Shown one piece after another: positions 4,844 to 21,357 of a stretch of 24,000 bases of DNA. The stretch lies in assembly GCA_025463135.1 (NCBI GenBank), contig JAOAPY010000011.1, positions 190,024 to 214,023 of the forward strand. The letters run 5' to 3'. Below the pieces are notes generated by a model. The model was not told the DNA's origin and did not search any database. It saw only the letters and a list, made by a program, of their open reading frames with translations. Made by a program: the position numbers and the translations under genes. The stretch's first letter is position 1. Each line of letters begins with the position of its first letter. Source of the stretch: Acidobacteriota bacterium. Its GTDB lineage: Bacteria > Acidobacteriota > Blastocatellia > Pyrinomonadales > Pyrinomonadaceae.

Positions 4844-4917
4844 TGGCTGGGAGGCAGGGACTCGAACCCCGATAGCCAGATTCAGAGTCTGGAGTCCTAC
4901 CATTGGACGACCTCCCA
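4844..4917 (-). tRNA. tRNA-Gln (anticodon CUG), CCA encoded
   Basis: The reverse complement folds by hand as a cloverleaf: TGGGAGG TC GTCC AATGGTA GGAC T CCAGA CT-CTG-AA TCTGG CTAT CGGGG TTCGAGT CCCTG CCTCCCA G CCA. U1:A72 and G73 are the bacterial tRNA-Gln identity features. Confidence 0.93.
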
Positions 4918-8905: not shown

Positions 8906-10882
8906 TCAAACTGCAATCGTCTCTTGCTCGTGCTCATCGACTAAGTACGGCGAAACGACCACGGGTTTTTCATCTGCGTCCTCGGCGAGTACGGCCTGGA
9001 TGATGGGCAGGCTCAGCGAGTGCTTCTTTGAGATTCCGGGAACGTTGTGACCGGCGGAATAAACCGCGTGTCGTTCGTTCTCCTGGTACCACTCGGCGAG
9101 GTTCGCGGTCTTGTGCATGTTCTCGATAATCTGGCGCCAGCCAACACCCGTGTTATAGGCGCAGAAGCTGATCTCGCCTTCCTGCGTGCCGTAGGGAATC
9201 ACGCACATTTCAGTGCGGCGGAAATCGTAATTGAAGAGGTCCTGAAACCACATGCCTTCAACACAAAGCACGCGCCAGATGTCGTTTGGATCATCGGGGG
9301 CTTTCGCTTTCATGCGATCGTTGCGATCAGAACTGGAGTTTGTCGAGGACGGTTTAAAGAGATTGAGGATCTGCGAAATCGGAAATCCTTCCGGCGCGCG
9401 CTCAGCGTGGAAGTTGCGCATGATGGCCATCCCGAGCTGTGCGTACGAGAGTTTCTTGCCGCGCGCCGAGTCGGTTATCACCGCCACGTCTTTCATGAAC
9501 TGCTCATAATCGAAAAAGTCGAACAGCGAAGTGAACTGCCCGGTTTTCTTGTTGACGACAATCAGCGTAAAGATGCCGCAGTTCGGATGGCAATTGCATG
9601 AAGACCAGCCCCAGGGCGCATCCGCGCCTTGCAGCATGTCCATTACGCTCGTGAACGCTGAATACGAAGACAGCGGATACCAGTCACGCAAGGGTTGCAA
9701 GCGGCCGCCGAGTTGATCCTTGAGATCGTGCGTCATGCCGGCCAGGGTATAGCGTTGCTTGATGCGCACAGCGTCAGCCACATCTTCGTCCCGTCCGGTG
9801 AATGAAACGGGCTGGAAAGCGATGGTCTGAACTTTGTCGATGTTCTGTGCGGCAAATTCAACAATCGCGCCAATGCCGTCGTTGTTGATGGTATTGACGA
9901 TGGTCGTCACCAGTGTGACTTTGATGCCGACGCTAGCCAGGTTTTCAATAGCCTGTTGCTTAACATCGAACAGGTTGCCGACGCCGCGGTGTTTGTTCTT
10001 TTCTTCGCTGACGCCGTCGAATTGCAAGTAGACGCCGTGTTGACCCGCAGCCTTGGCGGCCTTGCAGAACTCAATGTCTTCGGCAAAGCGGATACCGTTG
10101 GTCGCCGCCAGGATGCGATAGAAGCCAACCTTCTTGGCGTAAGCGACTGCTTCAAGGTAGTAAGGCGAAAGCGTAGGCTCGCCGCCGGAAAAGAGAATTA
10201 TGATTTGGCGTTTGGGCTTGAACGATACGGCACGATCCAGGATCGCTTTGGTATCTTCATAAGTTGGTTCATGAACATAACCAACCTGGTTCGCATCCAT
10301 GAAGCACGGATTGCACATCATGTTGCAGCGATTGGTAAGATCTACAGTCAGGACAGCGCCACGACCGAACTTGATATTCGAAGTGCCGTGATGATGTACG
10401 TGCGAATCTTCGGCGGCGCGAAAATCGCGGCCAAAAAAGAGAGATTCGATGCGTTCGAGAAACGCCGGGTCGGTGGCCATGACGTCCACAAACTCGCCGT
10501 GTTTGGGACAGGTCTTCTTCATGACTACCTGTCCGTTTTCTTCCACGATCTGGGCTTTGATTTCGCCCGGATGTTCGTTCATCAATGATTCAAGAGTGAC
10601 CTCGCCGGTGATGACGGCGTCGCGAACTTCCTTGACGCAGCGCGGGCAAAGGCTGTCGGTCTCGCGTGGAAAGCCGAGCGGTGGAGACGTGCGTTCGTAA
10701 GATTTCAGCAGAGGTCCCGGCGCCCACTGCGGACGAATAGCTTCGCCCTCGGGGAGTCGGGTGTTAACGGACTGAAACGCCTTCCAGGCGAGGTCAGAAA
10801 GATCCGAAACGAGTTTGGAGCTCTTCGCTCCTTTTAGTAAACCTTTTTCGGATTCACCCCGGCGGAACTGATCACTGAACAA
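8906..10882 (-). CDS. Tes / GDGT-MAS (MJ0619)-family radical SAM protein (putative membrane-spanning/tetraether lipid synthase homologue)
   Basis: 658 aa. N-terminal Cys4 ribbon: LCPRC...KKTCPKHGEF. Radical SAM core: DLTNRCNMMCNPCF, with CNMMCNPC encoded at 10327-10304. Further motifs are FSGGEPTL, ILAATNGIRFAED, GVYLQFDGVSEE, VTLVTTIVNTINND and IAFQPVSFTGRDEDV, plus a long C-terminal domain with extra Cys (SSCNCHPNCG). Order and spacing match my memory of the MJ0619 family. The start is TTG with a GGGAGAAG Shine-Dalgarno 6-7 nt upstream. Confidence 0.72.
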   Translation of the reverse strand: MFSDQFRRGESEKGLLKGAKSSKLVSDLSDLAWKAFQSVNTRLPEGEAIRPQWAPGPLLKSYERTSPPLGFPRETDSLCPRCVKEVRDAVITGEVTLESLMNEHPGEIKAQIVEENGQVVMKKTCPKHGEFVDVMATDPAFLERIESLFFGRDFRAAEDSHVHHHGTSNIKFGRGAVLTVDLTNRCNMMCNPCFMDANQVGYVHEPTYEDTKAILDRAVSFKPKRQIIILFSGGEPTLSPYYLEAVAYAKKVGFYRILAATNGIRFAEDIEFCKAAKAAGQHGVYLQFDGVSEEKNKHRGVGNLFDVKQQAIENLASVGIKVTLVTTIVNTINNDGIGAIVEFAAQNIDKVQTIAFQPVSFTGRDEDVADAVRIKQRYTLAGMTHDLKDQLGGRLQPLRDWYPLSSYSAFTSVMDMLQGADAPWGWSSCNCHPNCGIFTLIVVNKKTGQFTSLFDFFDYEQFMKDVAVITDSARGKKLSYAQLGMAIMRNFHAERAPEGFPISQILNLFKPSSTNSSSDRNDRMKAKAPDDPNDIWRVLCVEGMWFQDLFNYDFRRTEMCVIPYGTQEGEISFCAYNTGVGWRQIIENMHKTANLAEWYQENERHAVYSAGHNVPGISKKHSLSLPIIQAVLAEDADEKPVVVSPYLVDEHEQETIAV

Positions 10883-10984
10883 TGATGTCTTCTCCCAACG
10901 CTGCTGCTGACGTTTGACGCTTCGTGAATCATTAAGGGCTGCTCACGCTGATGTATCTACGGCCCAGCCTCTGCGGCGCTGCCC

Positions 10985-11013
10985 ATGATAGTGTTCTCGC
11001 CCAGCTAAGGCAA
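10985..11013 (-). promoter_or_regulatory. Candidate sigma70-like promoter for the Tes-like gene (TTGCCT - 17 nt - TATCAT)
   Basis: The minus strand reads TTGCCT (11013-11008), a 17-nt spacer, then TATCAT (10990-10985), about 100 nt upstream of the TTG start. Match made by eye only. Confidence 0.3.
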
Positions 11014-11099
11014 GGCAAAAAGGCCGCTTAGCCAACGTGTAGAAGCGGAATTTCTCGGCAACTGGCGGTCCTAAGCTGTTGGCCTTAAAGCCATTTGTA

Positions 11100-11129
11100 T
11101 TGACAGCAACGTTGACGCAAGCGTATAAG
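11100..11129 (+). promoter_or_regulatory. Candidate sigma70-like promoter for the SIR2/STAND pair (TTGACA - 18 nt - TATAAG)
   Basis: TTGACA at 11100-11105, an 18-nt spacer, TATAAG at 11124-11129. The geometry matches the tRNA-Gln promoter in this window. It lies about 125 nt upstream of ATG 11255. Confidence 0.35.
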
Positions 11130-11162
11130 CCAGCCGGGCGAGTGATGCTCTTGTACGGCAGT

Positions 11163-11227
11163 CTGCCAGCCTGCAGATCCCGCGCGGGCATCTACCACCC
11201 AGACCTCGACAGGCGGGCAGCCTGTCG
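11163..11227. repeat. Palindromic repeat module (CTGCCAGCCTG ... CAGGCGGGCAG, with the hairpin CGACAGGC-GGGCA-GCCTGTCG)
   Basis: CTGCCAGCCTG (11163-11173) is the near-perfect inverted complement of CAGGCGGGCAG (11210-11220). A perfect 8-bp hairpin sits at 11207-11227. The same module recurs at 18374-18415 and 21254-21299. Confidence 0.6.
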
Positions 11228-11254
11228 TGCAAGTTGGTCGTCAGGGAAACCGAA

Positions 11255-12163
11255 ATGTCTGCGAAAGAAGAACCACCTTACAAAATAATTGCCAGTCTGT
11301 TGAAGGGCGGCGAGGTCATTCCGTTCCTGGGAGCGGGCGTCAACTTTGGCATGCGCCAGGCGCCTGGCGCGCAATGGGCCATTAAGACCACAAACTTCCT
11401 CCCCAGCGGCGCCGACCTCTCAACTTATCTCATCGACCAGTGTGAGTTTCCCGACAAGACTGAAAAAGATCTCGCCAAGGTTTCGTCCTACTATGTAGAG
11501 GTGGTCGACCGGGACGCTCTCAGCGAAGGCCTGGTAACCATTTTTGACCGCGACTATGAGCCGTGCGAAATTCATCACTACCTGGCTAACGATATTCCGG
11601 CCGATAAACATTCATTGATCGTCACCACGAACTACGATGATTTGACCGAGCAGGCTTTTCTCAAAGCCAAGCGCCCTTTCGATCTGGTAGTACATCCCAC
11701 GGACAGCGCCCACGCGGGATCGGTTATCTGGTGGCAGTATCAAGCCACTGAACCTGAGTATGTTCCGCCCAACTCGCTGCAAATTGATCTGAGCAAGACA
11801 ACCGTTATTTACAAAATGCACGGCTCCGTCGACCGGGCTTTGCACCGCATGGACAACTATGTGATCACGGAAGACGACTACATCGACTTCCTTACGCGCA
11901 TGATTGGTCAGACGGCGGTGCCGGCACAGTTCATGGCCTATTTCAGGACTCATCGCTTTCTGTTTATGGGCTATGGCCTGAACGATTGGAACCTGCGTGT
12001 CATCCTCAATAACCTGCATGCGTCGGACCTGCACTCAAAAAAATCGTGGGCCATCCAGTACCATCCATCGACGGTGGAAAAGAGGCTTTGGGACAAACGC
12101 AATGTTGATATCTATGACGTAGAAATTAATGAATTTACCAAACAACTGCGCGCGCGCGGATAA
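11255..12163 (+). CDS. SIR2-like (SIR2_2 family) protein, a putative NAD+-consuming effector
   Basis: Motifs: VIPFLGAGVNFG (Gly-rich Rossmann start), LIVTTNYDDLTEQAF, VIYKMHGSVD (candidate catalytic His codon at 11819-11821), YVITEDDYIDF and FLFMGYGLNDWNLRVIL. There is no additional sensor domain. ATG 11255 is preceded by AGGGAA; the ORF-track TTG at 11234 is less likely. Confidence 0.85.
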   Translation: MSAKEEPPYKIIASLLKGGEVIPFLGAGVNFGMRQAPGAQWAIKTTNFLPSGADLSTYLIDQCEFPDKTEKDLAKVSSYYVEVVDRDALSEGLVTIFDRDYEPCEIHHYLANDIPADKHSLIVTTNYDDLTEQAFLKAKRPFDLVVHPTDSAHAGSVIWWQYQATEPEYVPPNSLQIDLSKTTVIYKMHGSVDRALHRMDNYVITEDDYIDFLTRMIGQTAVPAQFMAYFRTHRFLFMGYGLNDWNLRVILNNLHASDLHSKKSWAIQYHPSTVEKRLWDKRNVDIYDVEINEFTKQLRARG

Positions 12164-12180
12164 GTGGGGCGCTGAGTACC

Positions 12181-14892
12181 ATGTCGACCTCTGTTGCCCA
12201 CAGCTTTTGCCCTTACAAAGGTCTGCAACCCTACACCGAGGCAGACCGCAAATACTTCTTTGGGCGCACACGCGATCAGGGAATCATCATCTCAAACCTT
12301 TATGCCTCACCCTTGACCGTCTTTTATGGCGCCAGTGGCGTCGGCAAAAGTTCAGTACTGCTGGCTGGAGTGGTGCCGCTGCTCAAGCAGGAACCGCGCG
12401 ATGTCGTCGTAGTCGTTTTCAATAGCTGGCAAGGTGAAGACTTTCTCGCGGCCCTCAAAAGCGAGGTTGCGAAGCAAGCGGGAACAACGGCGCCGGTTGC
12501 CGAGGCGTTGCCGCTGGATGATTTCCTGGCGGAGACACAGCGCGCGCTTGGCCTCCCGCTTTTTCTTATACTCGATCAATTTGAAGAATATTTTCTTTAT
12601 CATCCTTCTTCGCCCGCGGCGGACGCTTTCGAGTCCTCGTTAGCGCGTGCGGTAAATCGCCGCAGCGTCCAGGTGAATATTTTCCTTTCGCTGCGCGAAG
12701 ATGGATTGAGCAAACTCGACCGTTTTCAGGGCCGCCTGCCGGCGCTGCTTAACAACCTGTTGAGGCTGGGCCACCTTGATCGTGATTCGGCCCGCGAAGC
12801 AATAGTTAAACCGCTCGAGCAATACAACAGCGAAAGCGGTGCAGGACAATTACCGTTTACGATTGAGGACGCACTGGTAAACGCTGTGCTCGACGATCTC
12901 TCCTCCGTAACAACAGCCTCGGATCAGGTTGGTCAGGGCCAGGTTGTCGAGCAATCGAAAAGTGCGGGCACGGTGCCGATTGAAACACCCTTCCTGCAAA
13001 TGGTTTTAACGCGGCTTTGGGATGAAGAGACCGCCGGCGGCTCTCGCGTATTGCGTCTGCAAACCTATGATGCCCTCGGACGAGCTGAGAATATTGCGCG
13101 CACGCACCTTGATACGATGATGTCACGGCTGACCGACCTTGAGCGCGCGACCGGGGCCAACATACTGCGTTATCTGGTGACGCCGTCAGGCACAAAGATC
13201 GCGCAGGAGGCGGGAGCACTTGCGTCCTGGAGCGAACTGCCGCCAGCCGAAGTCCAGTCGTTCCTGGATCGCCTGAGCGCGCCTGACATGCGCATTCTGA
13301 GAACGGTGCAGGCGCCCGGCCAGCCGGCGCGCTATCAAATCTTTCACGACGTGTTGGCCCACGCGATACTTGACTGGCGGGCTCGCTACGTTCAGGAGCA
13401 AAAACGTCTGGAAGCTGAGCACCAGCTGGCGCTTGAGCGGGCCAGTAGTGCCGAACAACTGGCGCATCAACGTAAACGGACCCGTCGGCTGCGGCTCATC
13501 GCTGCCGGGCTGCTGTTGATGCTGCTCTCGATGATTGTTCTGGCGGGAAAAGTGTACTACGCCAATTTCACTGCGCGCTCAGGTGAACTGGCCGCCTCTT
13601 CCAAAGCGCAACTCGACACCGATCCGGAACTCAGTCTGTTGCTGGCCATCGAAGCTGTTAATACCAGGCGCACAAAAAAATCGATCGAAGCTTTGAAGGC
13701 CGCGTTGATTGCCTCACAACTCAACGCTGTGCTCGATGCAAAAACCGAGGGTCGAGTCGCAAGTGTCGCTTTTAGTCCCGACGGAAAACACGTCGTAACT
13801 GCGAGTTGGGATGGAGCCGCCCGCGTTTGGGAAACAAAGACGCATAACATCTTGAGCGTACTGGCGGGTCATGGAAACCATGTCAACAGCGCCGCTTTCA
13901 GCCCGGATGGAAGGTACGTATTAACCACCAGCCAGGACAACACCGCGCGCGTCTGGGACGGATGGCAAGCAGGAGCGCCGAAGATTATTCAAAAACTTTC
14001 AGAGGGCGGCGAGATCTCTACGGCGGCCTTTAGTCCCAATGGCGAATACATCCTGACCGCGGGTGGGGAAGGAAAAGTCCACGTGTGGACGTGGAAAGGC
14101 GATGCGCCGGAGGAGAAAGCACAACTGGACATCGCCCTGGCATTGGCCGGCAACGCATCCGCGACGCAACCCTCGACCGTGCCAGCGACGCCGGAACCCA
14201 GTCCCACTCCAAGTTCAGCAGCGACACCTGGAGTCCCTGCGGCATCAGCCACACCCGGCCGGATCTTTATTTACAAGGCAGCATTCAGTCCCGATCCCGA
14301 TGGTAATTACATTATTGTGGCGTCCAAGACCAGGAAGGTATTGGTGTGGCAATGGCGGGACGAGAAGAATAATCAGGTCAAGCTTAAGCTGAGCGGGCAT
14401 ACTTCGGGAGTTTATGATGCCGCGTTCAGCAATGATGGAGCTTACGCGGTGACGGGCAGTGATGACTCAACAGCCATTGTTTGGGATCTGAAGAAACCCG
14501 ATGTTCCCAAAGTCAAGTTTAACCTGGGCACGAATCGCATCAGGGGCGTCGCATTTAGTCCTGACGGCAATTTCGTTGCCACTGCCAGTTACGATCGGCT
14601 GGCAAGATTATGGGAATGGCAACAGTTTGATGCTGTCCTGCGTGCGGCGCAGAAACCGGAGGAGCGCAGCCAACCAATGATCTTGAGCGGGCATTCAGGG
14701 CTGGTAATTTGCGTGGCCTACAGTGCTGATGGTCAGTTCGTGGTTACCGGCAGTGACGATGGCACGGCGCGCGTTTGGAGAACCCAACGCCTGGACCGCG
14801 GCACCTTGGACAAGCTCAGCACCGATGAACTATTGCAGTTAGCCAGAGGACGCGTCACTCGCGAGTTGACGCACGCGGAAAAGGATTTGTAG
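12181..14892 (+). CDS. nSTAND-type P-loop NTPase, single TM helix and 7-blade WD40 repeat protein
   Basis: N-terminal signature FCPYKGLQPYTEADRKYFFGRTRD. Walker A is GASGVGKSS (12328-12354) and Walker B is LFLILDQFEE (D codon at 12574). A helical/winged-helix region and a coiled coil ending in HQRKRTRRLR follow. The TM helix is LIAAGLLLMLLSMIVLAG (13495-13548). Seven xAFSPDGxxxxTxSxDxTARVW blades span about 13740-14790. Confidence 0.88.
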   Translation: MSTSVAHSFCPYKGLQPYTEADRKYFFGRTRDQGIIISNLYASPLTVFYGASGVGKSSVLLAGVVPLLKQEPRDVVVVVFNSWQGEDFLAALKSEVAKQAGTTAPVAEALPLDDFLAETQRALGLPLFLILDQFEEYFLYHPSSPAADAFESSLARAVNRRSVQVNIFLSLREDGLSKLDRFQGRLPALLNNLLRLGHLDRDSAREAIVKPLEQYNSESGAGQLPFTIEDALVNAVLDDLSSVTTASDQVGQGQVVEQSKSAGTVPIETPFLQMVLTRLWDEETAGGSRVLRLQTYDALGRAENIARTHLDTMMSRLTDLERATGANILRYLVTPSGTKIAQEAGALASWSELPPAEVQSFLDRLSAPDMRILRTVQAPGQPARYQIFHDVLAHAILDWRARYVQEQKRLEAEHQLALERASSAEQLAHQRKRTRRLRLIAAGLLLMLLSMIVLAGKVYYANFTARSGELAASSKAQLDTDPELSLLLAIEAVNTRRTKKSIEALKAALIASQLNAVLDAKTEGRVASVAFSPDGKHVVTASWDGAARVWETKTHNILSVLAGHGNHVNSAAFSPDGRYVLTTSQDNTARVWDGWQAGAPKIIQKLSEGGEISTAAFSPNGEYILTAGGEGKVHVWTWKGDAPEEKAQLDIALALAGNASATQPSTVPATPEPSPTPSSAATPGVPAASATPGRIFIYKAAFSPDPDGNYIIVASKTRKVLVWQWRDEKNNQVKLKLSGHTSGVYDAAFSNDGAYAVTGSDDSTAIVWDLKKPDVPKVKFNLGTNRIRGVAFSPDGNFVATASYDRLARLWEWQQFDAVLRAAQKPEERSQPMILSGHSGLVICVAYSADGQFVVTGSDDGTARVWRTQRLDRGTLDKLSTDELLQLARGRVTRELTHAEKDL

Positions 14893-14930: not shown

Positions 14931-14955
14931 TACCACGCGGCTGAAGCCGTTGGTA
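14931..14955. repeat. CTGAAG-centred palindrome/hairpin immediately downstream of the STAND gene
   Basis: TACCA-CG-CGGCTGAAGCCG-T-TGGTA. The inner 12-nt palindrome CGGCTGAAGCCG sits at 14938-14949. No T-run follows. Confidence 0.4.
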
Positions 14956-15011
14956 TCAGAGTCTCGACACCGACTCAATCGGCCCAGGACAATTCTTAGA
15001 ACTTTCCTCAG

Positions 15012-15041
15012 TTGCTTCACAAACACGCGCGCATGTAATAT
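15012..15041 (+). promoter_or_regulatory. Candidate sigma70-like promoter for lpxA (TTGCTT - 18 nt - TAATAT)
   Basis: TTGCTT at 15012-15017, an 18-nt spacer, TAATAT at 15036-15041. The -10 ends 19 nt before ATG 15061. Match made by eye only. Confidence 0.3.
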
Positions 15042-15060
15042 CCCGCCGCCTGCTGCTTTC

Positions 15061-15897
15061 ATGACCATCCATTCCACAGCGACAGTTCATCCGACGGCGA
15101 TCATCGGTTCGCAGGCGGCGATCGGACCCCAGGTGCAGGTTGGTCCATATGCGGTGATCGAAGACGAAGTTGTGATTGGCGCCGGATGCATAATCGGTGC
15201 GCATGCGGTTATCAAACGATTTACCTCACTCGGCGCGCGCAATCGTGTGTTTGAGCATACCGTGCTCGGCGGCGAGCCCCAGGATGTAAAGTTCAAGGGC
15301 CAGACGAGCAGTTTGATCATCGGTGACGATAATTTAATTCGCGAGTTCTGCACGTTGCACCGCGCCAATGGCGAAGGCGAAATTACGCGCATCGGTTCGC
15401 GCAATTTTCTAATGGTCGGCGTGCACATCGCACACAACTGCACGATCTGCGACGACAACATTTTTGCTAATGATGTGGCCCTGGCGGGTCACATTATCAT
15501 TGAAGACCGCGTGTTCCTTTCCAATAACGTTGGTGCACATCAATTCGTGCGGTTCGGACGCTGTGCGATGATTGGTGGTAAGTCAAAAATCGTACAGGAC
15601 GTGTTGCCTTTCTTCATCACCGACGGGAATCCAGCGCGTGTGCGCGGAGTGAATTCCGTGGGTTTGCGGCGCGCGGGTTTTTCAACCGAGACACGGCAGG
15701 CTCTGAAGGAGGCTTATCGGCTGCTGTTCAGGTCAGACCTTTCATTAGAAACGGCGCTCAACCATCTCGAACAGATTCCCGATGACAATGTCACTCATCT
15801 GGTAAACTTCATCCGCGAGTCCAAGCGCGGTTTCACGAGGAGTGCGAGGAGAAAAGACGGTGGGCTGGAGGCAGAAACCCTCGCCTTTGAAAAGTAA
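15061..15897 (+). CDS. lpxA: Acyl-ACP--UDP-N-acetylglucosamine O-acyltransferase
   Basis: Left-handed beta-helix hexapeptide repeats starting MTIHSTATVHPTAIIGSQAAIGPQVQVGPYAVIEDEVVIGAGCIIG. Also present are LGGEPQDVKFKG and the C-terminal helical domain GVNSVGLRRAGFSTETRQALKEAYRLLFRS. ATG 15061 gives a typical length of 278 aa; the ORF-track start at 14950 adds a non-homologous extension. Confidence 0.92.
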   Translation: MTIHSTATVHPTAIIGSQAAIGPQVQVGPYAVIEDEVVIGAGCIIGAHAVIKRFTSLGARNRVFEHTVLGGEPQDVKFKGQTSSLIIGDDNLIREFCTLHRANGEGEITRIGSRNFLMVGVHIAHNCTICDDNIFANDVALAGHIIIEDRVFLSNNVGAHQFVRFGRCAMIGGKSKIVQDVLPFFITDGNPARVRGVNSVGLRRAGFSTETRQALKEAYRLLFRSDLSLETALNHLEQIPDDNVTHLVNFIRESKRGFTRSARRKDGGLEAETLAFEK

Positions 15898-15907
15898 GAG
15901 TGCAAGT

Positions 15908-16037
15908 TTCCCGCAAAGGTGCAAAGCGCGCAAAGAATGCAATCCTGTGACCAGATACCTAAGGATGCACCAGGCGCCTATTATCAAGAGCGATTGAATG
16001 CTCGGTTCTTCTTTGCGTGTTTACGCCTCTGCGGGAA
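15908..16037. repeat. Long imperfect inverted repeat (about 30-nt arms, about 71-nt spacer) in the lpxA-lpxD intergenic region
   Basis: Arm 1 is TTCCCGCAAAGGTGCAAAGCGCGCAAAGAA (15908-15937). The reverse complement of arm 2 (16009-16037) is TTCCCGCAGAGGCGTAAACACGCAAAGAA. The arms are roughly 80 percent identical by eye. Confidence 0.55.
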
Positions 16038-16078
16038 CCACTTGTTTACGCTACCCAAAATGGGTCGTTTGATATTCG

Positions 16079-17131
16079 ATGAACCACTCCAATCAGCTTG
16101 CTGTCTCTGAACTCGCCGCTCATGTGGGCGGCAGTGTCATCGGCGATGGCAGTGCCTTGATTCAACGAGTCGCCAGCCTCGACGCCGCCGGCGCCGGTGA
16201 TATCGCCTACGTCGAAGACGAGAAGTTCTTTGCGGCCGCAAACTCGAGCAGAGCATCCTGTGTAATCGTCCCCACGGGCGCCGGCGTGAAAGCGCCTTGT
16301 CGCATTGAAGTCAAGCGCCCGAAACTCGCCTTTGCCTTAATTGCCGAACTGCTTCACCCCGCTAAGAAATGCTCTCCGTCCATTCATCCTACTGCCGTGA
16401 TAGCTGAAAGCGCGGCGGTTGACGAGAGCGCCTGGCTTGGCCCACACGTCGTCATCGAGGATTACGCTCGCGTGGGCGCGGAAACGCGCATCGAGGCCGG
16501 CGTGGTCGTCGGCGCCAACGTCACGGTCGGTCGCGCCTGCGTATTGCATCCAAACGTGGTGCTCTATGACGGCGTCACGATCGGTGATCGAGTGATTCTG
16601 CATGCAGGTGTTTGCATTGGAGCGGATGGTTTTGGCTATGTGCGCGGCGATATGGGCTATCACAAATTTCCGCAAATCGGCACCGCTGTAATCGAAGATG
16701 ATGTGGAGCTGGGTGCGTATACTTGTGTGGATCGCGGCGCGCTGGGCCGCACGCGGATCGGGCGCGGCACCAAGCTGGATAACCTGGTCCACGTGGGCCA
16801 CAATTGCGACATCGGCGAACGCGTGGTGATTGCCGCGCAAACCGGAATTTCGGGCAGCGTAATTATCGAAGATGACTGCGTCATCGGCGGCCAGGTGGGC
16901 TTTGGCGACCACATTCGCGTGCTAAGCGGCGCCGTGATTGGTTCAAAAGCGGGAGTACTGCCGGGCAAGATCGTGCGGCCCGGTGTCTGGTGGGGCATTC
17001 CTATTCAGCCCCTCGATGAATACAAGCGTCTTCATGCCCATCTCGGCCGCTTGCCGCATTTGCGCGACGAATTGAAGGAGCTGCGCGAACGTGTGAAGGA
17101 GTTGGAACGGAAGCTCGTGCGGGACAAGTAG
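16079..17131 (+). CDS. lpxD: UDP-3-O-acylglucosamine N-acyltransferase
   Basis: N-terminal uridine-binding domain (LAVSELAAHVGGSVIGDG...IAYVEDEKF...ASCVIVP), a long hexapeptide-repeat beta-helix containing GADGFGY and VHVGHNC, and a C-terminal helix. Confidence 0.92.
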   Translation: MNHSNQLAVSELAAHVGGSVIGDGSALIQRVASLDAAGAGDIAYVEDEKFFAAANSSRASCVIVPTGAGVKAPCRIEVKRPKLAFALIAELLHPAKKCSPSIHPTAVIAESAAVDESAWLGPHVVIEDYARVGAETRIEAGVVVGANVTVGRACVLHPNVVLYDGVTIGDRVILHAGVCIGADGFGYVRGDMGYHKFPQIGTAVIEDDVELGAYTCVDRGALGRTRIGRGTKLDNLVHVGHNCDIGERVVIAAQTGISGSVIIEDDCVIGGQVGFGDHIRVLSGAVIGSKAGVLPGKIVRPGVWWGIPIQPLDEYKRLHAHLGRLPHLRDELKELRERVKELERKLVRDK

Positions 17132-17153
17132 GGGCGGACACAAAGGTCAGCAA

Positions 17154-18326
17154 CTACTGCCATTCGTCAAGTCTCTTCAAAACGACTTCCGCGGCGCGCC
17201 GTGAGGCGCCGCCATCACCGAGACGCGCTGCGACCTCGTGTAATTTTATCTTCATTGCCTGGTTTTGTTCTGGTTTCAGCAGCGCCAACAGCTCCGCCCC
17301 TAATTTCTCGCCATTCAGATCGTTCTGCATCAGCTCAGTCACGACCCGCTTGCCCGCAACGAGATTAACCAATCCAAAGTGATCGGCGGTGATCAAACGA
17401 CCGAGCGTGTGCCAGTTGACTGGTGATTCCTTGTAAACAATTACCATTGGCGTGCCGAGGATCGCGGCTTCCAGAGTTGCCGTGCCGCTGGCTATGGCTG
17501 CCGCGTCTGCTGCGGCCAGCGCTTCGCGTGTTTCGTGATGGATGACTCGCAGTGTGGGCAATTCTTTATGTGCAGCGGCAACGATCTGTTTTGCTTCCGC
17601 AAGTGAGCGGCTTGGTGCGACTACCATCACGAACTGCACTTCTGGTTGCGCTGTCGCGATCACAGCTGAGGCATCAAGCATGGGAGGCAGAATGCGCAGC
17701 AATTCTTTATGGCGGCTGCCGGGCAAGAGAGCGATGATTGGGCGCGCAGGGTCCAAATCGTTCGCCGTACAGAACTCTGTGCGGCTGTAACGCGCGCGAA
17801 CCTCTCCCGCCAGAGGATGGCCCACGTATTCGATCTGCTGCATCCCGCGTTCAGCAAACCAATCAACTTCAAAGGGCATGATGGAAAGCAATAGATCAAC
17901 GTCGCGCCGGATCTGAGCGACGCGATAGGAACGCCAGGCCCAGACCTGCGGACTTATGTAATAGATGACCCGCAGACCCCGCCGGTGCAGAGCCCTGGCA
18001 AGCCGCAGGTTGAACTCAGGCCAGTCAACCAGGACAACAGCGTCGGGCTTTTTTTCAATGGCCGCGTTTTTTAGCCGCTTGAAGGCGCGCAGGAATTTGG
18101 GAAAGACGCGACCGACCTCGACGATGCCCATGATAGCGAGCTCATCTGAGTTTACGATCGTCTCAACTCCTGCTGAGCGCATCGCTGGACCAGTAGCTCC
18201 AAAAAATTCGATCTGCGTGGTGGGCGCTACCTCGTGTAAGGCATGCACAAGTGAGGCAGCGTGCGCGTCGCCGGAGGGCTCACCGGCGACGATCATTAAA
18301 CGAAAGTGTGAAGTGTCGTGGGTCAT
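17154..18326 (-). CDS. lpxB: Lipid-A-disaccharide synthase
   Basis: The N-terminus ...MIVAGEPSGDAHAASLVHAL, together with DWPEFNLRLA, YYISPQVWAWR, LLPGSRHKEL and ASGTATLEAAILGTPMVIVYK, forms the LpxB (GT19) hallmarks. The start is either ATG 18326 or the internal Met 10 codons downstream. Confidence 0.92.
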   Translation of the reverse strand: MTHDTSHFRLMIVAGEPSGDAHAASLVHALHEVAPTTQIEFFGATGPAMRSAGVETIVNSDELAIMGIVEVGRVFPKFLRAFKRLKNAAIEKKPDAVVLVDWPEFNLRLARALHRRGLRVIYYISPQVWAWRSYRVAQIRRDVDLLLSIMPFEVDWFAERGMQQIEYVGHPLAGEVRARYSRTEFCTANDLDPARPIIALLPGSRHKELLRILPPMLDASAVIATAQPEVQFVMVVAPSRSLAEAKQIVAAAHKELPTLRVIHHETREALAAADAAAIASGTATLEAAILGTPMVIVYKESPVNWHTLGRLITADHFGLVNLVAGKRVVTELMQNDLNGEKLGAELLALLKPEQNQAMKIKLHEVAARLGDGGASRRAAEVVLKRLDEWQ

Positions 18327-19425: not shown

Positions 19426-21225
19426 CTATTCCACCGCCACCGTCGCCACACGAAGCCCCAGTTGTCTTTGGTCCGGGCCTACACCTAATGATGCCGGGGT
19501 GGCGGCGCCCAGAACCTGGAAGTCCAGAATGTTTTTCGCGCGCAAACTGTTTGCTGGTAGTGAAAGAACATAATCCGACAACTCAGAATTCTTCAACGTC
19601 ACAGTCGTTAAGGTTTGTTCATTGAGTTTGAACGTCACTCGCTGCTCGTCCAGTTTCCCCGGCGCCAAAAATGGCGCCATCCTTATCTTCAGAGTCAACG
19701 GCCTGATCTCATTCAAAGAAAAGATCATGGTTGCATGCGTCGCGTTGGTCCAACGACTTTCCGGCTCCGCGATGCTCCAGCCATACCAAAGATACTGGTC
19801 CGCGTCACGAGTAGTGAAGTTAATCTCCTTTTCGAGGAGCGGCACATTGGGTGGGAAGGGCGGGGGAATGAGCCCGGCCAGGAATTGTGGTTGGCGCCAG
19901 TCCCAGATTCGTTCGGGTTTCAAATCAACATTTTCCGGCAGAGAATTCCAGATAGAGGTCGCCGGCGAAATCGCACCACGAGCATGGATAAAGATACCGG
20001 CACAAAGTAACACCAGGCCAACAGCCTGGGTCATCACCAATTCAAAACGCCCGATGGCCGGCGCGCCCGCTCGAGTCTCGAGCAGCGCGCTTAATCCGAG
20101 TATCGACAGCAGCACCAACCACGGCACAAACGCAGTCATCAGCCTTGGTCCATAACTGTGGCCACCCCACCAGTGATCGAAACCGGAGATCACGATTAGC
20201 TGTGAAACCATCGCCGCCATCGCCAGCACTACCAAACGGGGGTGCGGCAACTGCCGGCGAAATCTTAGGAGCAGATAAAGAACGAAGATCACTGCCGGCA
20301 CGAATATCAACAGACCGCGCGAAGGACTTATCAGATTCCCCGGCAAGGCGGTCCAGAACTTTCCAAACAACAAGCGACCCGGACGGAAATAGTTTGGCAG
20401 CAGCTGTCCAAAGTTATGCCGGGAATAGATCACCAGCCCCGCGGCCCAAGCAAAACCGGTCACCACATACGCAATTACTTGTCGCCTGTTAAGGACGAAC
20501 AGCAGATAGAAACTGATGGCCAACACATGCACCGCATAGCTGGGATAAACAAGATAAGCCCAGGCGAGCAGACTGGCGAGCAGCACCGGACGCAATCGAC
20601 TCTTTTTTGCTTCATGCGCCAGCAGGGAAAAGATCACCAGGCTCAGCAGCAGTACCGCCCAGGTATCCGTGAACATGGCGCGCGACGCCGTGCTCCAGAT
20701 CTGTGTTCCCAAAGCTCCACCCAAAGTTACCAGCAGACTGTAACGAAGCGGCAGCAGTAGCTGGGCCAGATAAAAAAAGATCGCCGTCAATACAGCCATC
20801 AGAAAGGCCGCCAGCAGCGATTCAATTTTTGTCTCACCCGCAAGATTGAATGAGTTGTCCGGCTTTACCGTCGATATTCCGAAAGCGTTGGCCAACAGCA
20901 CGAAGGGCGTGGAGAGGACCGATGAACCGGGCGGAAAGAAATAATAAAGGTGCGGACCCACCTGCTCGATTTGATAGATATCGCCATTTTGCACGTAGTC
21001 TCCGCGTGCAAGCGGCGGCAGACGAGGTACCGCGTAGTGGTCCAACCGGAAACTGTGATGGTCGAGCAGGCATTGGCTCACCATCATCGAATACTTTGAA
21101 TCATTGATCGGATGCAGGCGCGATGATTTGAAGATCAAAAAGGCGAGCAGAAAAATGATGACGGCGATCACATGACGATTTTGAAGCAGGCCGGGCACGC
21201 CGCGAATAATAGCAGAGTCCGACAA
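19426..21225 (-). CDS. Polytopic GT-C-fold membrane glycosyltransferase (ArnT/PMT_2-like) with a C-terminal soluble domain
   Basis: About 12 hydrophobic helices. The first-loop motif INDSKYSMMVSQCL resembles the D-E-x-R-Y...L motif of ArnT/PMT_2 enzymes. The C-terminal ~170 aa carry a YLWYGWSIAEPESRWTNATHATMIF motif. The annotated TTG start lies inside a repeat hairpin and has no Shine-Dalgarno, so the true start may be downstream. Confidence 0.6.
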   Translation of the reverse strand: MSDSAIIRGVPGLLQNRHVIAVIIFLLAFLIFKSSRLHPINDSKYSMMVSQCLLDHHSFRLDHYAVPRLPPLARGDYVQNGDIYQIEQVGPHLYYFFPPGSSVLSTPFVLLANAFGISTVKPDNSFNLAGETKIESLLAAFLMAVLTAIFFYLAQLLLPLRYSLLVTLGGALGTQIWSTASRAMFTDTWAVLLLSLVIFSLLAHEAKKSRLRPVLLASLLAWAYLVYPSYAVHVLAISFYLLFVLNRRQVIAYVVTGFAWAAGLVIYSRHNFGQLLPNYFRPGRLLFGKFWTALPGNLISPSRGLLIFVPAVIFVLYLLLRFRRQLPHPRLVVLAMAAMVSQLIVISGFDHWWGGHSYGPRLMTAFVPWLVLLSILGLSALLETRAGAPAIGRFELVMTQAVGLVLLCAGIFIHARGAISPATSIWNSLPENVDLKPERIWDWRQPQFLAGLIPPPFPPNVPLLEKEINFTTRDADQYLWYGWSIAEPESRWTNATHATMIFSLNEIRPLTLKIRMAPFLAPGKLDEQRVTFKLNEQTLTTVTLKNSELSDYVLSLPANSLRAKNILDFQVLGAATPASLGVGPDQRQLGLRVATVAVE

Positions 21226-21328
21226 ACTTCAGTTTGTCGTTGTGTAGCACAAGCTGCCAGCCTGTGCACGTAAGCACCTACAGGCCGGCAGGCCTGTAGT
21301 ACAGTCATCGACAAACTGAAGTTTGTCG
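21217..21328. repeat. Composite palindromic (REP/MITE-like) element, copy 2
   Basis: Terminal hairpins are GTCCGACAAACTTCAGTTTGTCG (21217-21239) and CGACAAACTGAAGTTTGTCG (21309-21328). The internal module is CTGCCAGCCTGT (21254-21265) ... CTACAGGCC-GGCA-GGCCTGTAG, a perfect 9-bp hairpin at 21278-21299. Confidence 0.7.
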
Positions 21329-21357
21329 AACATCCGCTACGTTCTTTTTGCCGCTTC

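What the first reader, a model, noticed from the sequence alone, without database searches (positions are those of the whole stretch)
11234..14892. Split SIR2 effector plus nSTAND-TM-WD40 NTPase: candidate undescribed two-gene conflict/signalling system
Two co-directional genes are separated by only 17 nt (stop 12163, ATG 12181).

Gene 1 is a bare SIR2_2-type domain with the motifs FLGAGV, TTNYDD, KMHGS and FMGYGLNDWN, and it has no sensor or partner domain.

Gene 2 has the nSTAND1-type signature CPYKGLxPYxxxDxxxFFGR, a Walker A (GASGVGKSS) and a Walker B (LILDQFEE). A TM helix and a 7-blade WD40 propeller follow.

SIR2 NADase effectors are established in Thoeris ThsA, DSR1/2, SIR2-HerA, SPARSA and Avs-type STANDs where SIR2 is fused. 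nSTAND-WD40 proteins have been proposed as conflict systems on comparative-genomic grounds only. To my knowledge, a stand-alone SIR2 coupled in an operon to a membrane-anchored STAND-WD40 is not an experimentally described system.

Working hypothesis: ligand recognition by the WD40 propeller drives NTP-dependent oligomerisation of the STAND, which recruits and activates the SIR2 to deplete NAD+, causing abortive infection or growth arrest. The pair sits between unrelated lipid-biosynthesis genes and is flanked by repeat elements, which is consistent with an accessory insertion.
Basis: partly seen in the sequence, partly recalled or inferred. Interest (0 to 1): 0.85.

Follow-up and report, generated by a model that had tools for sequence, protein, structure and literature searches.

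The report
Membrane STAND receptor with SIR2 partner
Two adjacent genes encode an NAD-destroying enzyme and an Apaf-1-like switch protein that crosses the membrane with its sensor predicted to face outward; the pair travels together across about a dozen bacterial phyla, has never been studied, and looks like an immune-type receptor that watches the cell envelope rather than the cytoplasm.

Summary
The two genes are real and annotated correctly. Gene 1 is a stand-alone SIR2_2 protein (11255-12163). Gene 2 is nSTAND1 NTPase, one TM helix and a 7-blade WD40 (12181-14892), 17 nt downstream.

They form a conserved unit:
- In 80 related loci from about 12 phyla, an nSTAND1 gene accompanies the SIR2 in 79; the 80th contig is truncated.
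- It lies immediately downstream in 73.
- SIR2 and NTPase divergence are correlated (r = 0.79).
- Cytosolic relatives fuse nSTAND1 and this SIR2 subfamily into one protein.

- There are no flanking repeats. The pair sits in a fixed syntenic slot (radical-SAM | pair | lpxA-lpxD) across Blastocatellia/Pyrinomonadaceae, so it is not a recent insertion.
- The single TM helix is a clade feature with positive-inside bias. The NTPase is therefore predicted cytoplasmic and the variable C-terminal sensor (WD40, TPR, PASTA or unknown) extracytoplasmic.

The SIR2 resembles the anti-phage NADases KomC, ThsA and DSR2. The NTPase-WD40 protein best matches Apaf-1.

Best reading: a transmembrane, NLR-like receptor that activates an NADase. 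The closest studied system is Avs5, which is fused, uses nSTAND3 and is cytosolic. I class this as a new variant of a known kind; its function is untested.

The parts
10883..11254 (.). Intergenic spacer between the divergent radical-SAM gene and the SIR2 gene; presumed promoter region of the pair
   Evidence: No ORF is supported and there is no Rfam hit. The sigma-70 consensus scan was uninformative. The promoter role is an inference only.
11255..12163 (+). Gene 1: stand-alone SIR2_2-family protein, 302 aa (alternative upstream TTG at 11234), predicted NAD+-consuming effector
   Evidence: Pfam SIR2_2 97 bits. The start is supported by homologue N-termini and by the gene call on the identical Logan contig. 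The AF2 model has pLDDT 85 and pTM 0.87. Foldseek top hits are KomC, ThsA and DSR2, prob 1.0.
11324..11341 (+). FLGAGV: Rossmann glycine loop of SIR2 (NAD binding)
   Evidence: G26 and G28 are 72/72 conserved across paired homologues; position.
11630..11632 (+). Codon of N126 in the TTNYD motif (catalytic Asn of SIR2-type NADases)
   Evidence: 72/72 conserved. It aligns to the TTNYD of DSR2.
11819..11821 (+). Codon of H189 in the KMHG motif (catalytic His)
   Evidence: 72/72 conserved. KMHG aligns to the KVHG motif of DSR2; H171A variants of DSR2 are among the deposited entries.
12164..12180 (+). 17-nt spacer between the two genes (operon-like coupling)
   Evidence: In 73/80 related loci the nSTAND1 domain begins within -60 to +400 nt of the end of the SIR2 match.
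12181..14892 (+). Gene 2: 903-aa nSTAND1 NTPase - stalk - single TM helix - WD40 ectodomain
   Evidence: Pfam nSTAND1 165 bits plus WD40. AF2 model. The best PDB match is full-length Apaf-1, E 5.5e-18.
12208..12267 (+). N-terminal signature CPYKGLQPYTEADRKYFFGR of the nSTAND1 domain
   Evidence: Near-invariant in A4 and mostly conserved in 72 partners.
12328..12354 (+). Walker A GASGVGKSS (K56 at 12346-12348)
   Evidence: K is conserved in 69/72.
12565..12588 (+). Walker B LILDQFEE
   Evidence: DQFE is 72/72 conserved and the final E 70/72.
13342..13356 (+). FHDVL motif at the end of the NTPase module, resembling the MHD/LHD motif of the winged-helix domain in NLRs and Apaf-1
   Evidence: H and D are 72/72 conserved. 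Equivalence to MHD is inferred from position and from the structural match to Apaf-1.
13483..13569 (+). Single transmembrane segment (residues 435-463, core LRLIAAGLLLMLLSMIVLA), preceded by KRTRR
   Evidence: Kyte-Doolittle 19-mer mean is 2.48 and it is the only segment above 1.5. It lies inside one continuous predicted helix, 390-476. The same feature occurs in 75/79 partners, and 70/75 have more K+R before than after.
13570..14889 (+). Predicted extracytoplasmic sensor: two short helices then a 7-blade WD40 propeller (blades about 13741-14805)
   Evidence: Pfam WD40 at 208 bits on this segment alone. Topology is inferred and from the PASTA-bearing relative. This region is 53-54% identical to L008, against 71% for the NTPase. 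It is replaced by TPR in L007.
14161..14259 (+). Pro/Thr/Ser/Ala-rich low-complexity insert between blades 3 and 4
   Evidence: Sequence. pLDDT is below 50 across 653-745.

Best explanation
The two genes form one signalling module: a membrane-spanning STAND (NLR/Apaf-1-like) receptor and its NAD+-consuming effector.

Proposed mechanism, with the status of each step:
1. The nSTAND1 NTPase sits in the cytoplasm, tethered by a charged helical stalk to a single TM helix. The C-terminal WD40 propeller lies outside the cytoplasmic membrane. (Inferred from sequence statistics across the family.)
2. A ligand or perturbation in the periplasm or envelope engages the propeller. (Inferred.)
3. The signal crosses the membrane through the stalk-TM helix and allows nucleotide-dependent oligomerisation of the NTPase modules in the plane of the membrane. 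(Inferred by analogy with Apaf-1 and Avs proteins.)
4. The NTPase assembly recruits and orders the free SIR2 protein into an active oligomer. (Inferred. Every solved defence SIR2 is active only as an assembly.)
5. SIR2 hydrolyses NAD+, causing growth arrest or death of the attacked cell. (Inferred from homology.)

What is shown here:
- The two genes are an obligate, co-evolving pair.
- Both have intact catalytic motifs.
- The TM segment is a conserved clade feature.
- The sensor domain is a swappable cassette.

The split into two genes is explained by topology. In cytosolic relatives SIR2 is fused to the C-terminus of nSTAND1. In the membrane form that C-terminus is exported, so the NADase has to be a separate cytoplasmic protein.
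For: Functional unit:
- An nSTAND1 gene accompanies this SIR2 subfamily in 79/80 loci from about 12 phyla; the 80th contig is truncated. It is immediately downstream on the same strand in 73.
- SIR2 and nSTAND1 are the only gene families shared by these loci.
- The chromosomal context differs between lineages, for example holB/ffh in L005 against rSAM/lpx in the window.
- The adjacency is kept at 34% SIR2 identity in Nonomuraea and lost at 27% in an unrelated nif-cluster SIR2.
- Pairwise identities of SIR2 and NTPase correlate, r = 0.79, with 0/999 Mantel permutations reaching that value.
- Rosetta stone: 7 of 10 long relatives tested are nSTAND1-linker-SIR2 single proteins without a TM.

Enzymes intact:
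- SIR2 N126, H189 and the GxG loop are conserved 72/72.
- Walker B DQFE, the sensor Arg and the FHD His/Asp are 72/72; the Walker A Lys is 69/72.

Effector type:
- The sequence and fold neighbours are the anti-phage NADases DSR2, ThsA and KomC.

Receptor type:
- Only nSTAND1 hits the NTPase.
- Full-length Apaf-1 is the best structural match, over about 1,050 aligned columns.

Topology:
- 75/79 partners have a strongly hydrophobic 19-mer right after the NTPase, and 68/75 have exactly one.
- K+R counts are 5.7 before the segment and 2.9 after, and 70/75 are positive-inside.
- One relative carries PASTA after the TM.
- Neither the NTPase nor the SIR2 has a signal-peptide-like N-terminus (sequences).

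Conflict-type evolution:
- The ectodomain is WD40 in 40/69 partners and otherwise TPR, pYEATS-like, PASTA or unknown.
- The nearest genome relative has the same slot and a 65%-identical NTPase, but a TPR ectodomain. Homology ends at the TM.
- Against L008 the ectodomain is 53-54% identical, compared with 71% for the NTPase, 80% for SIR2 and 69-91% for flanking genes.
- Several genomes hold two or more pairs with different sensors.
Against: - There is no experimental datum for any member.
- Topology rests on hydropathy and the positive-inside rule. No dedicated TM or signal predictor and no reporter fusion was available.
- No complex model could be made, so the SIR2-NTPase contact is inferred only from genomics and fusions.
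- The locus is not in a defence island. Its neighbours here are housekeeping genes, and only a few of 137 neighbours across loci hit PADLOC models, some probably by cross-matching.
- The family is absent from the plasmid, phage and viral-contig collections.
- It occupies a stable syntenic position in a whole bacterial class, which is unusual for fast-turnover defence genes.
- WD40 propellers of this G-beta type are mostly known as cytosolic domains.
- The second half of the propeller is poorly modelled.
- Some SIR2-family proteins are deacylases or ADP-ribosyltransferases rather than NADases.
Confidence: 0.55

Rival explanations
1. This is a cytoplasmic Avs-like sensor that is merely anchored to the membrane. 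The WD40 propeller binds a phage protein inside the cell, the STAND oligomerises, and SIR2 depletes NAD+ (abortive infection).
For: The domain content and SIR2 homology are the same as in the best explanation. All characterised bacterial STAND defence proteins sense cytosolic ligands (papers read). G-beta-type WD40 domains are usually cytosolic.
Against: With a single TM, the two flanking domains lie on opposite sides of the membrane. The NTPase needs cytosolic NTP and has no signal peptide, so the C-terminus must be outside. 68/75 partners have exactly one hydrophobic segment and 70/75 obey positive-inside with the NTPase inside. A relative carries PASTA, a domain known only outside the cytoplasm, in the same position.
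Confidence: 0.1
2. This is a housekeeping envelope-status sensor rather than an immune system. It would be built like PknB-PASTA kinases, report on cell-wall or outer-membrane state, and tune NAD+ metabolism or protein (de)acylation/ADP-ribosylation through SIR2 without killing the cell.
For: The pair holds a stable syntenic slot beside lpxA/lpxD/lpxB and a lipid-type radical-SAM gene in 15-16 Blastocatellia/Pyrinomonadaceae genomes. It is absent from mobile-element collections. The defence-island signal is weak. The architecture parallels PknB, and one relative has PASTA.
Against: Outside that lineage the neighbours are unrelated. Sensors are swapped between close relatives at the same locus and diverge faster than flanking genes. 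Genomes carry several paralogous pairs with different sensors. The SIR2 groups with defence NADases, not with sirtuin deacylases. Caspase-fold peptidases (CHAT, C11) join the locus in some lineages.
Confidence: 0.2
3. This is a regulated cell-suicide or kin-discrimination module of the kind proposed for bacteria with complex, multicellular-like life styles. It would respond to signals from neighbouring cells or to developmental cues rather than to phage.
For: nSTAND1 was defined within such predicted conflict and apoptosis-like systems (PMC8195603). The architecture is Apaf-1-like. A CHAT or C11 caspase-fold gene is present in 12 and 4 loci respectively, and a CHAT-SIR2 fusion exists. The outward-facing sensor could see extracellular cues. 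The family is enriched in soil Acidobacteriota, Chloroflexota and Myxococcota-type organisms.
Against: There is no direct evidence. The window's locus has no peptidase gene. This reading overlaps mechanistically with the best explanation and differs only in the trigger.
Confidence: 0.12
4. The adjacency is a chance or lineage-specific juxtaposition of two unrelated genes.
For: None beyond the fact that stand-alone SIR2_2 genes do occur without a STAND partner, for example in the Methylococcus nif cluster.
Against: 79/80 loci across about 12 phyla and several genomic contexts keep the pair. The two proteins co-diverge, and fusion proteins exist.
Confidence: 0.01

Closest known systems
Avs5 / SIR2-STAND (AVAST type 5; EfAvs5 PDB 9JAP, PaAvs5)
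   Same: It combines a PF13289 SIR2 NADase with a 'novel STAND' NTPase and a repeat-type sensor. In Avs5, NADase activity is switched on by STAND-driven assembly into filaments (PMC11897194; bioRxiv 10.1101/2025.07.08.663546).
   Different: Avs5 is one polypeptide in the order SIR2-NTPase-sensor. Its NTPase is nSTAND3 (PF20720), not nSTAND1. It is cytosolic with no TM and senses phage proteins inside the cell. The system here has two genes, an nSTAND1 NTPase, a single-pass TM and an outward-facing sensor. EfAvs5 was not among the sequence hits at E<=1 or the top 50 fold hits of the SIR2.
Apaf-1 / apoptosome (AP-ATPase STAND with WD40 sensor)
   Same: It is the best structural match to the whole partner protein, spanning both the NOD and the WD40 propeller. 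The shared logic is that a WD40 sensor releases NTP-dependent oligomerisation, which activates a separately encoded effector. In some relatives here a caspase-fold peptidase gene is adjacent.
   Different: Apaf-1 is soluble, has an NB-ARC domain (no Pfam NB-ARC hit here) and recruits a caspase through CARD. Here a TM helix separates the NOD and the WD40, and the effector is SIR2.
Defence SIR2 NADases: ThsA (Thoeris), DSR2, KomC (Kongming)
   Same: They are the closest sequence and fold relatives of gene 1, with the catalytic Asn and His conserved. All are NAD+ hydrolases that are active as oligomers or filaments.
   Different: ThsA carries a SLOG sensor for a TIR-made signal. DSR2 carries its own long sensor domain. 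KomC works with KomB and dITP. The SIR2 here is a bare domain whose conserved partner is an nSTAND1 membrane protein. No TIR, SLOG, HerA or KomB-type partner was seen.
nSTAND1-containing predicted conflict systems (Kaur, Iyer, Burroughs, Aravind, eLife 2021; EACC1 systems, eLife 2020)
   Same: The NTPase clade is the same, as is the modular design of effector + NTPase + variable sensor. The predictions are comparative-genomic only.
   Different: The described versions couple nSTAND1 to effectors through Death-like or EAD adaptor domains, or to EACC1-caspase. Text searches of both papers found no SIR2 operon partner and no TM-plus-ectodomain form. No adaptor domain is detectable here.
Uncharacterised cytosolic nSTAND1-linker-SIR2 fusion proteins (e.g. 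P0249, P0253, P0268)
   Same: They have the same SIR2 subfamily (42-51% identity) and the same NTPase family in one chain. They are probably the sister format of this system.
   Different: They have no TM segment. SIR2 occupies the C-terminus in place of the ectodomain. They are also unstudied.
PknB-type Ser/Thr kinases with extracellular PASTA domains (topological analogue only)
   Same: The layout is a large N-terminal cytoplasmic enzyme domain, a juxtamembrane stalk, one TM and C-terminal extracytoplasmic sensor repeats. One relative of the partner protein even carries PASTA. This comparison rests on general knowledge.
   Different: The output is a kinase rather than a STAND NTPase. There is no homology and no NADase partner.

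Membership tests
SIR2_2 (PF13289) defence-type NADases | Profile match above the curated threshold | tested here: met
   97.3 bits against a 24.5 cut-off.
SIR2_2 (PF13289) defence-type NADases | Rossmann GxG loop, catalytic Asn and catalytic His | tested here: met
   FLGAGV, N126 and H189 are conserved 72/72 in paired homologues. They align to the equivalent DSR2 motifs.
SIR2_2 (PF13289) defence-type NADases | SIR2 fold closest to ThsA/DSR2-type enzymes | tested here: met
   The AF2 model has pLDDT 85. Foldseek top hits are KomC, ThsA and DSR2, prob 1.0, TM 0.57-0.65.
SIR2_2 (PF13289) defence-type NADases | NAD+ glycohydrolase activity | not testable with these tools
   Requires an enzyme assay.
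STAND NTPase, nSTAND1 clade (PF20703) | Profile match above threshold and specific to this clade | tested here: met
   168 bits on residues 11-417. No nSTAND3, NACHT or NB-ARC hit appears, even at E<=1.
STAND NTPase, nSTAND1 clade (PF20703) | Walker A Lys, Walker B acidic residues, conserved sensor Arg | tested here: met
   K56 is conserved in 69/72, DQFE in 72/72 and R172 in 72/72.
STAND NTPase, nSTAND1 clade (PF20703) | Helical and winged-helix domains after the P-loop core, with an MHD/LHD-like His | tested here: inconclusive
   FHD is 72/72 conserved at residues 388-390. The module is modelled at pLDDT >90 and aligns with Apaf-1. A residue-level superposition was not obtained.
STAND NTPase, nSTAND1 clade (PF20703) | C-terminal repeat-type sensor domain | tested here: met
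   A WD40 propeller here; TPR and others in relatives.
STAND NTPase, nSTAND1 clade (PF20703) | Ligand- and NTP-dependent oligomerisation | not testable with these tools
   Requires biochemistry or cryo-EM.
Avs5 (SIR2-STAND) | SIR2, NTPase and sensor in a single polypeptide with SIR2 at the N-terminus | tested here: not met
   There are two ORFs with a stop and a 17-nt spacer. None of the top 120 NTPase homologues carries PF13289. The fusions found have the opposite order.
Avs5 (SIR2-STAND) | NTPase of the nSTAND3 type (PF20720), as reported for PaAvs5 | tested here: not met
   Only nSTAND1 is detected. The Avs5 domain assignment comes from the paper read.
Avs5 (SIR2-STAND) | Soluble cytosolic protein sensing intracellular phage proteins | tested here: not met
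   A conserved single TM with positive-inside bias. The ligand is unknown.
Thoeris (ThsA/ThsB) | SIR2 fused to a SLOG/STALD signal-binding domain, plus a TIR-domain ThsB gene | tested here: not met
   The PADLOC ThsA models match only the SIR2 part, residues 188-277. There is no further domain in the 302-aa protein. No TIR family appears among the conserved neighbours.
DSR2 / DSR1 | SIR2 with a long C-terminal sensor in the same protein (about 1,000-1,200 aa) | tested here: not met
   The NCBIfam Dsr2 model gives 18.6 bits against a 1400 cut-off. The protein is 302 aa.
Apaf-1-like AP-ATPases | NB-ARC domain plus WD40, with a CARD or caspase partner | tested here: inconclusive
   Apaf-1 is the best whole-protein structural match, but there is no NB-ARC profile hit. 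No CARD or caspase is present in the window; CHAT or C11 genes occur in some relatives.
Any catalogued defence system (PADLOC-DB 2.0.0) | Full-length match of both proteins to the models of one system | tested here: not met
   The SIR2 gives only partial domain-level hits. The nSTAND1 protein has one marginal P-loop hit (mad8, E 0.0075). Partners from other loci have none.
Defence-island residents | Enrichment of known defence genes among neighbours | tested here: inconclusive
   Few of 137 neighbours hit PADLOC at E<=1e-5. The pVip and mad hits are probably radical-SAM and ABC cross-matches. There is no background control.
EACC1 two-gene systems (Kaur et al. 2020) | A 5' gene with the EACC1 single-TM domain and a 3' caspase-fused gene | not tested
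   No EACC1 model was available. The window has no caspase-type gene next to the pair.

The most novel reading that the evidence does not exclude
This family would be the first transmembrane member of the STAND/NLR receptor world. A single-pass receptor carries an interchangeable extracytoplasmic sensor (WD40, TPR, PASTA and others) that monitors the periplasm or cell surface. Through NTPase oligomerisation at the inner face of the membrane, it switches on a separately encoded SIR2 NADase. That would mean bacteria detect attackers such as phage tails or ejected proteins, predators, toxins or envelope damage before or without cytoplasmic entry, using NLR-type machinery. It would merge the logic of surface pattern-recognition receptors with that of intracellular NLRs.
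Probability: 0.4. Interest if true: 0.85.

Novelty: new variant of a known kind. Interest (0 to 1): 0.7.

Why it matters
Every bacterial STAND/NLR-like immune protein characterised so far (Avs families, bNACHT, CARD-NLR-like) is a soluble sensor of cytoplasmic ligands. This family keeps the STAND-plus-NADase logic but places the sensor on the other side of the membrane. It therefore needs both trans-membrane signalling and an effector supplied in trans. If the topology and NADase activation are confirmed, three things follow.
- Surveillance of the envelope would become a new sensing compartment for NLR-type immunity.
- The split effector would have a clear structural explanation.
- There would be a natural toolbox of swappable ectodomains on a constant signalling core.

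The family is widespread in soil and subsurface phyla that are poorly served by current defence catalogues. There are 510 representative clusters at E<=1e-30 and 194 hits among species-representative genomes. Cultured carriers exist (Geobacter hydrogenophilus DSM 13691, Nonomuraea gerenzanensis), so the question can be tested directly.

Tried and rejected
- Flanking repeats or a mobile-element signature: repeat searches at two scales found nothing bracketing the pair. There is no GC anomaly. The only RNA gene is a tRNA about 6 kb away. I rejected the 'accessory insertion' reading.
- Known-system classification: the PADLOC and NCBIfam scans gave only SIR2 domain-level hits.
- Mobile carriers: the plasmid, phage and IMG/VR searches found only distant SIR2 subfamilies.
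- Promoter and terminator scan: not above shuffled expectation in any useful way.
- SIR2-first fusions (Avs5 order): none among the top NTPase or SIR2 homologues. An apparent fusion ORF in L077 was a frame artefact of upstream ORF extension (coordinates).
- Defence-island test: inconclusive.
- A complex (multimer) model could not be run with the tools and caps available.
- Literature: eight full-text searches and six papers read found no description of a SIR2 plus nSTAND1-TM pair. The library lacks most subscription-journal papers, so absence is not proof.

Full report
**1. Observation**

The window holds two co-directional ORFs at the stated coordinates. Gene 1 ends at 12163 and gene 2 starts with ATG at 12181, a 17-nt spacer.

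Pfam supports the assignments well above the curated thresholds:
- SIR2_2: 97 bits
- nSTAND1: 165 bits over residues 11-417
- WD40: 200 bits

When the NTPase module is scanned alone, nSTAND1 is the only significant family. There is no nSTAND3, NACHT or NB-ARC hit.

Gene 1 most probably starts at ATG 11255 (302 aa) rather than TTG 11234. All homologues begin there, and an independent gene call on an identical public contig gives 302 aa.

Gene 2 has exactly one strongly hydrophobic stretch, residues 435-463, with a Kyte-Doolittle mean of 2.48. It is preceded by KRTRR. Seven WD40-type repeats can be read in the C-terminal part.

The one element that fails is 'flanked by repeat elements'. Neither a local nor a whole-window repeat search finds anything bracketing the pair. 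Base composition is unremarkable.

**2. The two genes are one unit**

The SIR2 protein belongs to a large family of about 300-320-aa stand-alone SIR2_2 proteins. There are 3,553 clusters at E<=1e-5 in the word-indexed search. The exhaustive search finds 510 representative clusters at E<=1e-30.

Four homologues at 57-80% identity all have an nSTAND1 gene downstream, in at least two different chromosomal contexts.

A scan of one genome per species returned 194 relatives. The best 80 loci come from about 12 phylum-level groups: 45 Acidobacteriota, 12 Chloroflexota, then Verrucomicrobiota, Desulfobacterota/Geobacter, Gemmatimonadota, Actinomycetota, Pseudomonadota, Bacteroidota, Planctomycetota, Myxococcota and KSB1.

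I built an HMM from five partner NTPase modules and searched these loci:
- 73 of 80 have an nSTAND1 domain starting within -60 to +400 nt after the SIR2 match, on the same strand.
- 3 have it after one intervening gene.
- 3 have it just upstream.
- 1 contig ends 250 nt after SIR2.

Clustering all neighbouring ORFs shows that nSTAND1 and SIR2 are the only families shared across the loci.

Further support:
- The association persists at 34% SIR2 identity in the cultured actinomycete Nonomuraea gerenzanensis.
- It is absent at 27% identity, where a SIR2 sits inside a Methylococcus nif cluster. That marks the edge of the family.
- Pairwise identities of SIR2 and NTPase across 72 pairs correlate, r = 0.79, with 0 of 999 Mantel permutations reaching that value.
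- About 14 of the best 150 representative SIR2 relatives are long proteins. Of 10 tested, 7 are nSTAND1-linker-SIR2 fusions and 1 is a CHAT-SIR2 fusion.

This Rosetta-stone evidence, together with the adjacency and the co-divergence, makes a direct functional link between the two proteins very likely.

**3. What each protein is**

*SIR2.* The SIR2 model is confident (pLDDT 85, pTM 0.87). Its best structural matches are all anti-phage NADases: KomC of the Kongming system, ThsA of Thoeris and DSR2. Sequence searches of the PDB and of PADLOC give the same neighbours. The glycine loop, N126 and H189 are invariant in 72 paired homologues.

*NTPase.* The Walker A lysine (69/72), Walker B DQFE (72/72), a sensor-type arginine and an FHD motif at the end of the module (72/72) are conserved. 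Residues 6-390 are modelled at pLDDT above 90. They are followed by one continuous helix, 390-476, that contains the hydrophobic segment. The best PDB match to the whole protein is full-length Apaf-1, aligned over about 1,050 columns and ahead of WD40-only proteins. No solved structure is detectable by sequence for the nSTAND1 module.

**4. Topology, the main revision**

The hydrophobic segment is a feature of this clade, not a peculiarity of the window:
- 75 of 79 full-length partners have a 19-mer with mean hydropathy of at least 1.9 directly after the NTPase.
- 68 of 75 have exactly one such segment.
- The 15 residues before it carry on average 5.7 Lys+Arg, against 2.9 after it.
- 70 of 75 follow the positive-inside rule with the NTPase on the cytoplasmic side.

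The NTPase needs NTP and the SIR2 needs NAD+, and neither has a signal peptide-like N-terminus. The C-terminal domain should therefore be extracytoplasmic.

Independent hints agree with this:
- One relative carries a PASTA domain after the TM. By general knowledge, PASTA is known only from outside the cytoplasm.
- Four short Chloroflexota variants replace the ectodomain with further membrane segments.
- The fused, SIR2-bearing relatives have no hydrophobic segment at all.

This last point also explains the split gene. Where the C-terminus of nSTAND1 stays in the cytoplasm, SIR2 can be fused to it. Where the C-terminus is exported, SIR2 must be encoded separately. This is an inference, and the topology itself rests on sequence statistics only.

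**5. The sensor is a swappable cassette**

Among 69 ectodomains, 40 are WD40 propellers. Others are TPR, a borderline pYEATS-like domain in Geobacter, or have no Pfam match. The closest NTPase relatives (70-76% identity) mostly carry TPR.

The nearest genome relative, L007 (SIR2 82% identical), occupies exactly the same slot: radical SAM | SIR2 | partner | lpxA | lpxD | lpxB. Its partner is 628 aa with a TPR ectodomain. BLASTP identity is 65% through residue about 468 and then vanishes.

Against the closest WD40-bearing relative (L008), identities are as follows:

| Region | Identity |
|---|---|
| Flanking radical-SAM protein | 91% |
| SIR2 | 80% |
| NTPase | 71% |
| LpxD | 69% |
| Propeller | 53-54% |

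Several genomes hold two or more pairs, sometimes in tandem and with different ectodomains.

Accessory genes appear in some lineages:
- a 1,200-aa lipase-CHAT protein upstream of SIR2, in 12 loci
- an unknown 437-aa protein between the two genes
- a clostripain-type C11 peptidase downstream, in Geobacter

**6. Genomic setting**

The pair is not a recent insertion. In 15-16 Blastocatellia/Pyrinomonadaceae genomes it lies between the same radical-SAM gene and lpxA-lpxD. In other phyla the context differs.

It was not found on plasmids, phages or viral contigs; only distant SIR2 subfamilies were.

A rough defence-island test was inconclusive. Few of 137 immediate neighbours hit PADLOC models: two AriA/GajA-like ATPases, one DRT-type reverse transcriptase, a phospholipase and a caspase. 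The recurrent pVip and mad hits are probably radical-SAM and ABC-transporter cross-matches, and no background control was available.

**7. Mechanism**

The best-supported model is a transmembrane STAND receptor:
1. An extracytoplasmic cue engages the sensor.
2. The stalk-TM helix transmits the signal.
3. The NTPase modules oligomerise at the inner face of the membrane.
4. This platform assembles the free SIR2 into an active oligomer.
5. NAD+ is consumed.

Steps 1-5 are all inferred, by analogy with Apaf-1, with Avs proteins, and with Avs5 in particular. In Avs5, STAND-driven filament formation activates a fused SIR2 (PMC11897194).

What is shown here is the obligate pairing, the intact catalytic sites, the conserved single-pass architecture and the cassette-like evolution of the sensor.

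Whether the trigger is phage, another attacker, kin signals or envelope stress cannot be decided from sequence. The stable location beside lipid A genes in one lineage keeps a housekeeping envelope-sensor reading alive (about 0.2).

**8. Comparison with what is known, and novelty**

The closest characterised system is Avs5 (SIR2-STAND). It is a single cytosolic polypeptide with an nSTAND3 NTPase and SIR2 at the N-terminus. Three of its defining features were tested here and not met, so this is not an Avs5.

It is not Thoeris, DSR1/2 or Kongming either, because only the SIR2 fold is shared.

nSTAND1 was named in a comparative-genomic study of predicted conflict systems (PMC8195603). Text searches of that paper and its 2020 predecessor found no SIR2 operon partner and no TM-ectodomain form. 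A 2026 survey of defence-associated STAND families mentions WD40 and FGE sensors but discusses soluble proteins.

Within the limits of the searchable library, the pair is undescribed. I class it as a new variant of a known kind: a STAND NTPase plus SIR2 NADase conflict system. The new features are the membrane-spanning receptor format, the outward sensor and the effector supplied in trans.

Interest is 0.7. The genomics are strong and the implied biology would surprise specialists, but topology, NADase activation and biological role are all still untested.

Noticed in passing
window 8906-10882 (-): A 658-aa radical-SAM protein with an N-terminal HMPTM-type zinc ribbon lies divergent from the SIR2 gene. 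It is conserved next to the pair in 16 Blastocatellia/Pyrinomonadaceae loci and is 91% identical to its L008 orthologue. It may be a membrane-lipid (tetraether-synthase-like) enzyme, given the adjacent lpx genes. That idea comes from memory and was not tested.
   Followed up: partly
window 14950-18326: A lipid A cluster follows the pair: lpxA, lpxD (16079-17131) and lpxB (17154-18326, minus strand). The real lpxA start is probably 15061, from the gene call on the identical contig, rather than TTG 14950. No terminator-like site was found between the nSTAND1 gene and lpxA, so read-through transcription is possible.
   Followed up: partly
window 4847-4917 (-): A tRNA gene (Rfam RF00005, 62.8 bits) is the only Rfam match in the window.
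   Followed up: no
window 21217-21242 and 21306-21331: An inverted repeat with 26-nt arms, 92% complementary and 63 nt apart, lies just upstream of the long ORF that starts at 21358. It is the strongest repeat in the window and is unrelated to the finding.
   Followed up: no
window 14161-14259: A Pro/Thr/Ser/Ala-rich low-complexity insert (ATQPSTVPATPEPSPTPSSAATPGVPAASATPG) sits inside the WD40 propeller, between blades 3 and 4. It is modelled as disordered. Linkers of this composition are common in secreted proteins, which would fit an extracytoplasmic location.
   Followed up: partly
L003 4395-7994 and 9043-10356; L006 4239-7976; L010 6389-9988: Some Pyrinomonadaceae versions are three- or four-gene loci. 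A 1,200-aa protein with a lipase-like (LCAT) region and a CHAT caspase-fold domain lies directly upstream of SIR2. An unknown 437-aa protein with no Pfam or PADLOC match lies between SIR2 and nSTAND1. A CHAT-SIR2 fusion protein (P0320) also exists.
   Followed up: partly
L051 14185-15618; also L060, L067, L072 (Geobacter/Desulfuromonadales): A Peptidase_C11 (clostripain, caspase-fold) gene follows the nSTAND1 gene in the Geobacter loci. There the partner proteins are short (about 629 aa), with a 165-aa ectodomain that matches the prokaryotic YEATS model just below threshold.
   Followed up: partly
L049, L055, L064, L073 (Chloroflexota): Four short partner proteins (544-588 aa) have three hydrophobic segments and no ectodomain. 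This is a multi-pass membrane variant of the same SIR2-nSTAND1 pair.
   Followed up: no
L006 12287-16951 (= L021); also L014, L039, L052, L062, L075: Tandem or nearby duplicated SIR2-nSTAND1 pairs occur within one genome, with different ectodomain lengths. L006 has an extra unpaired SIR2 gene (290 aa) between the two pairs.
   Followed up: partly
L038 10942-12509; L083 10932-12433: The nSTAND1 gene downstream of SIR2 is broken into several frames in these two MAG contigs. They may be pseudogenes or assembly errors.
   Followed up: no
L089 6983-7825 (Methylococcus sp. EFPC2 plasmid): A distant stand-alone SIR2 (27% identity) is embedded in a nif/iron-sulfur cluster gene set with no STAND partner. 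It is a different SIR2_2 subfamily of unknown role.
   Followed up: no
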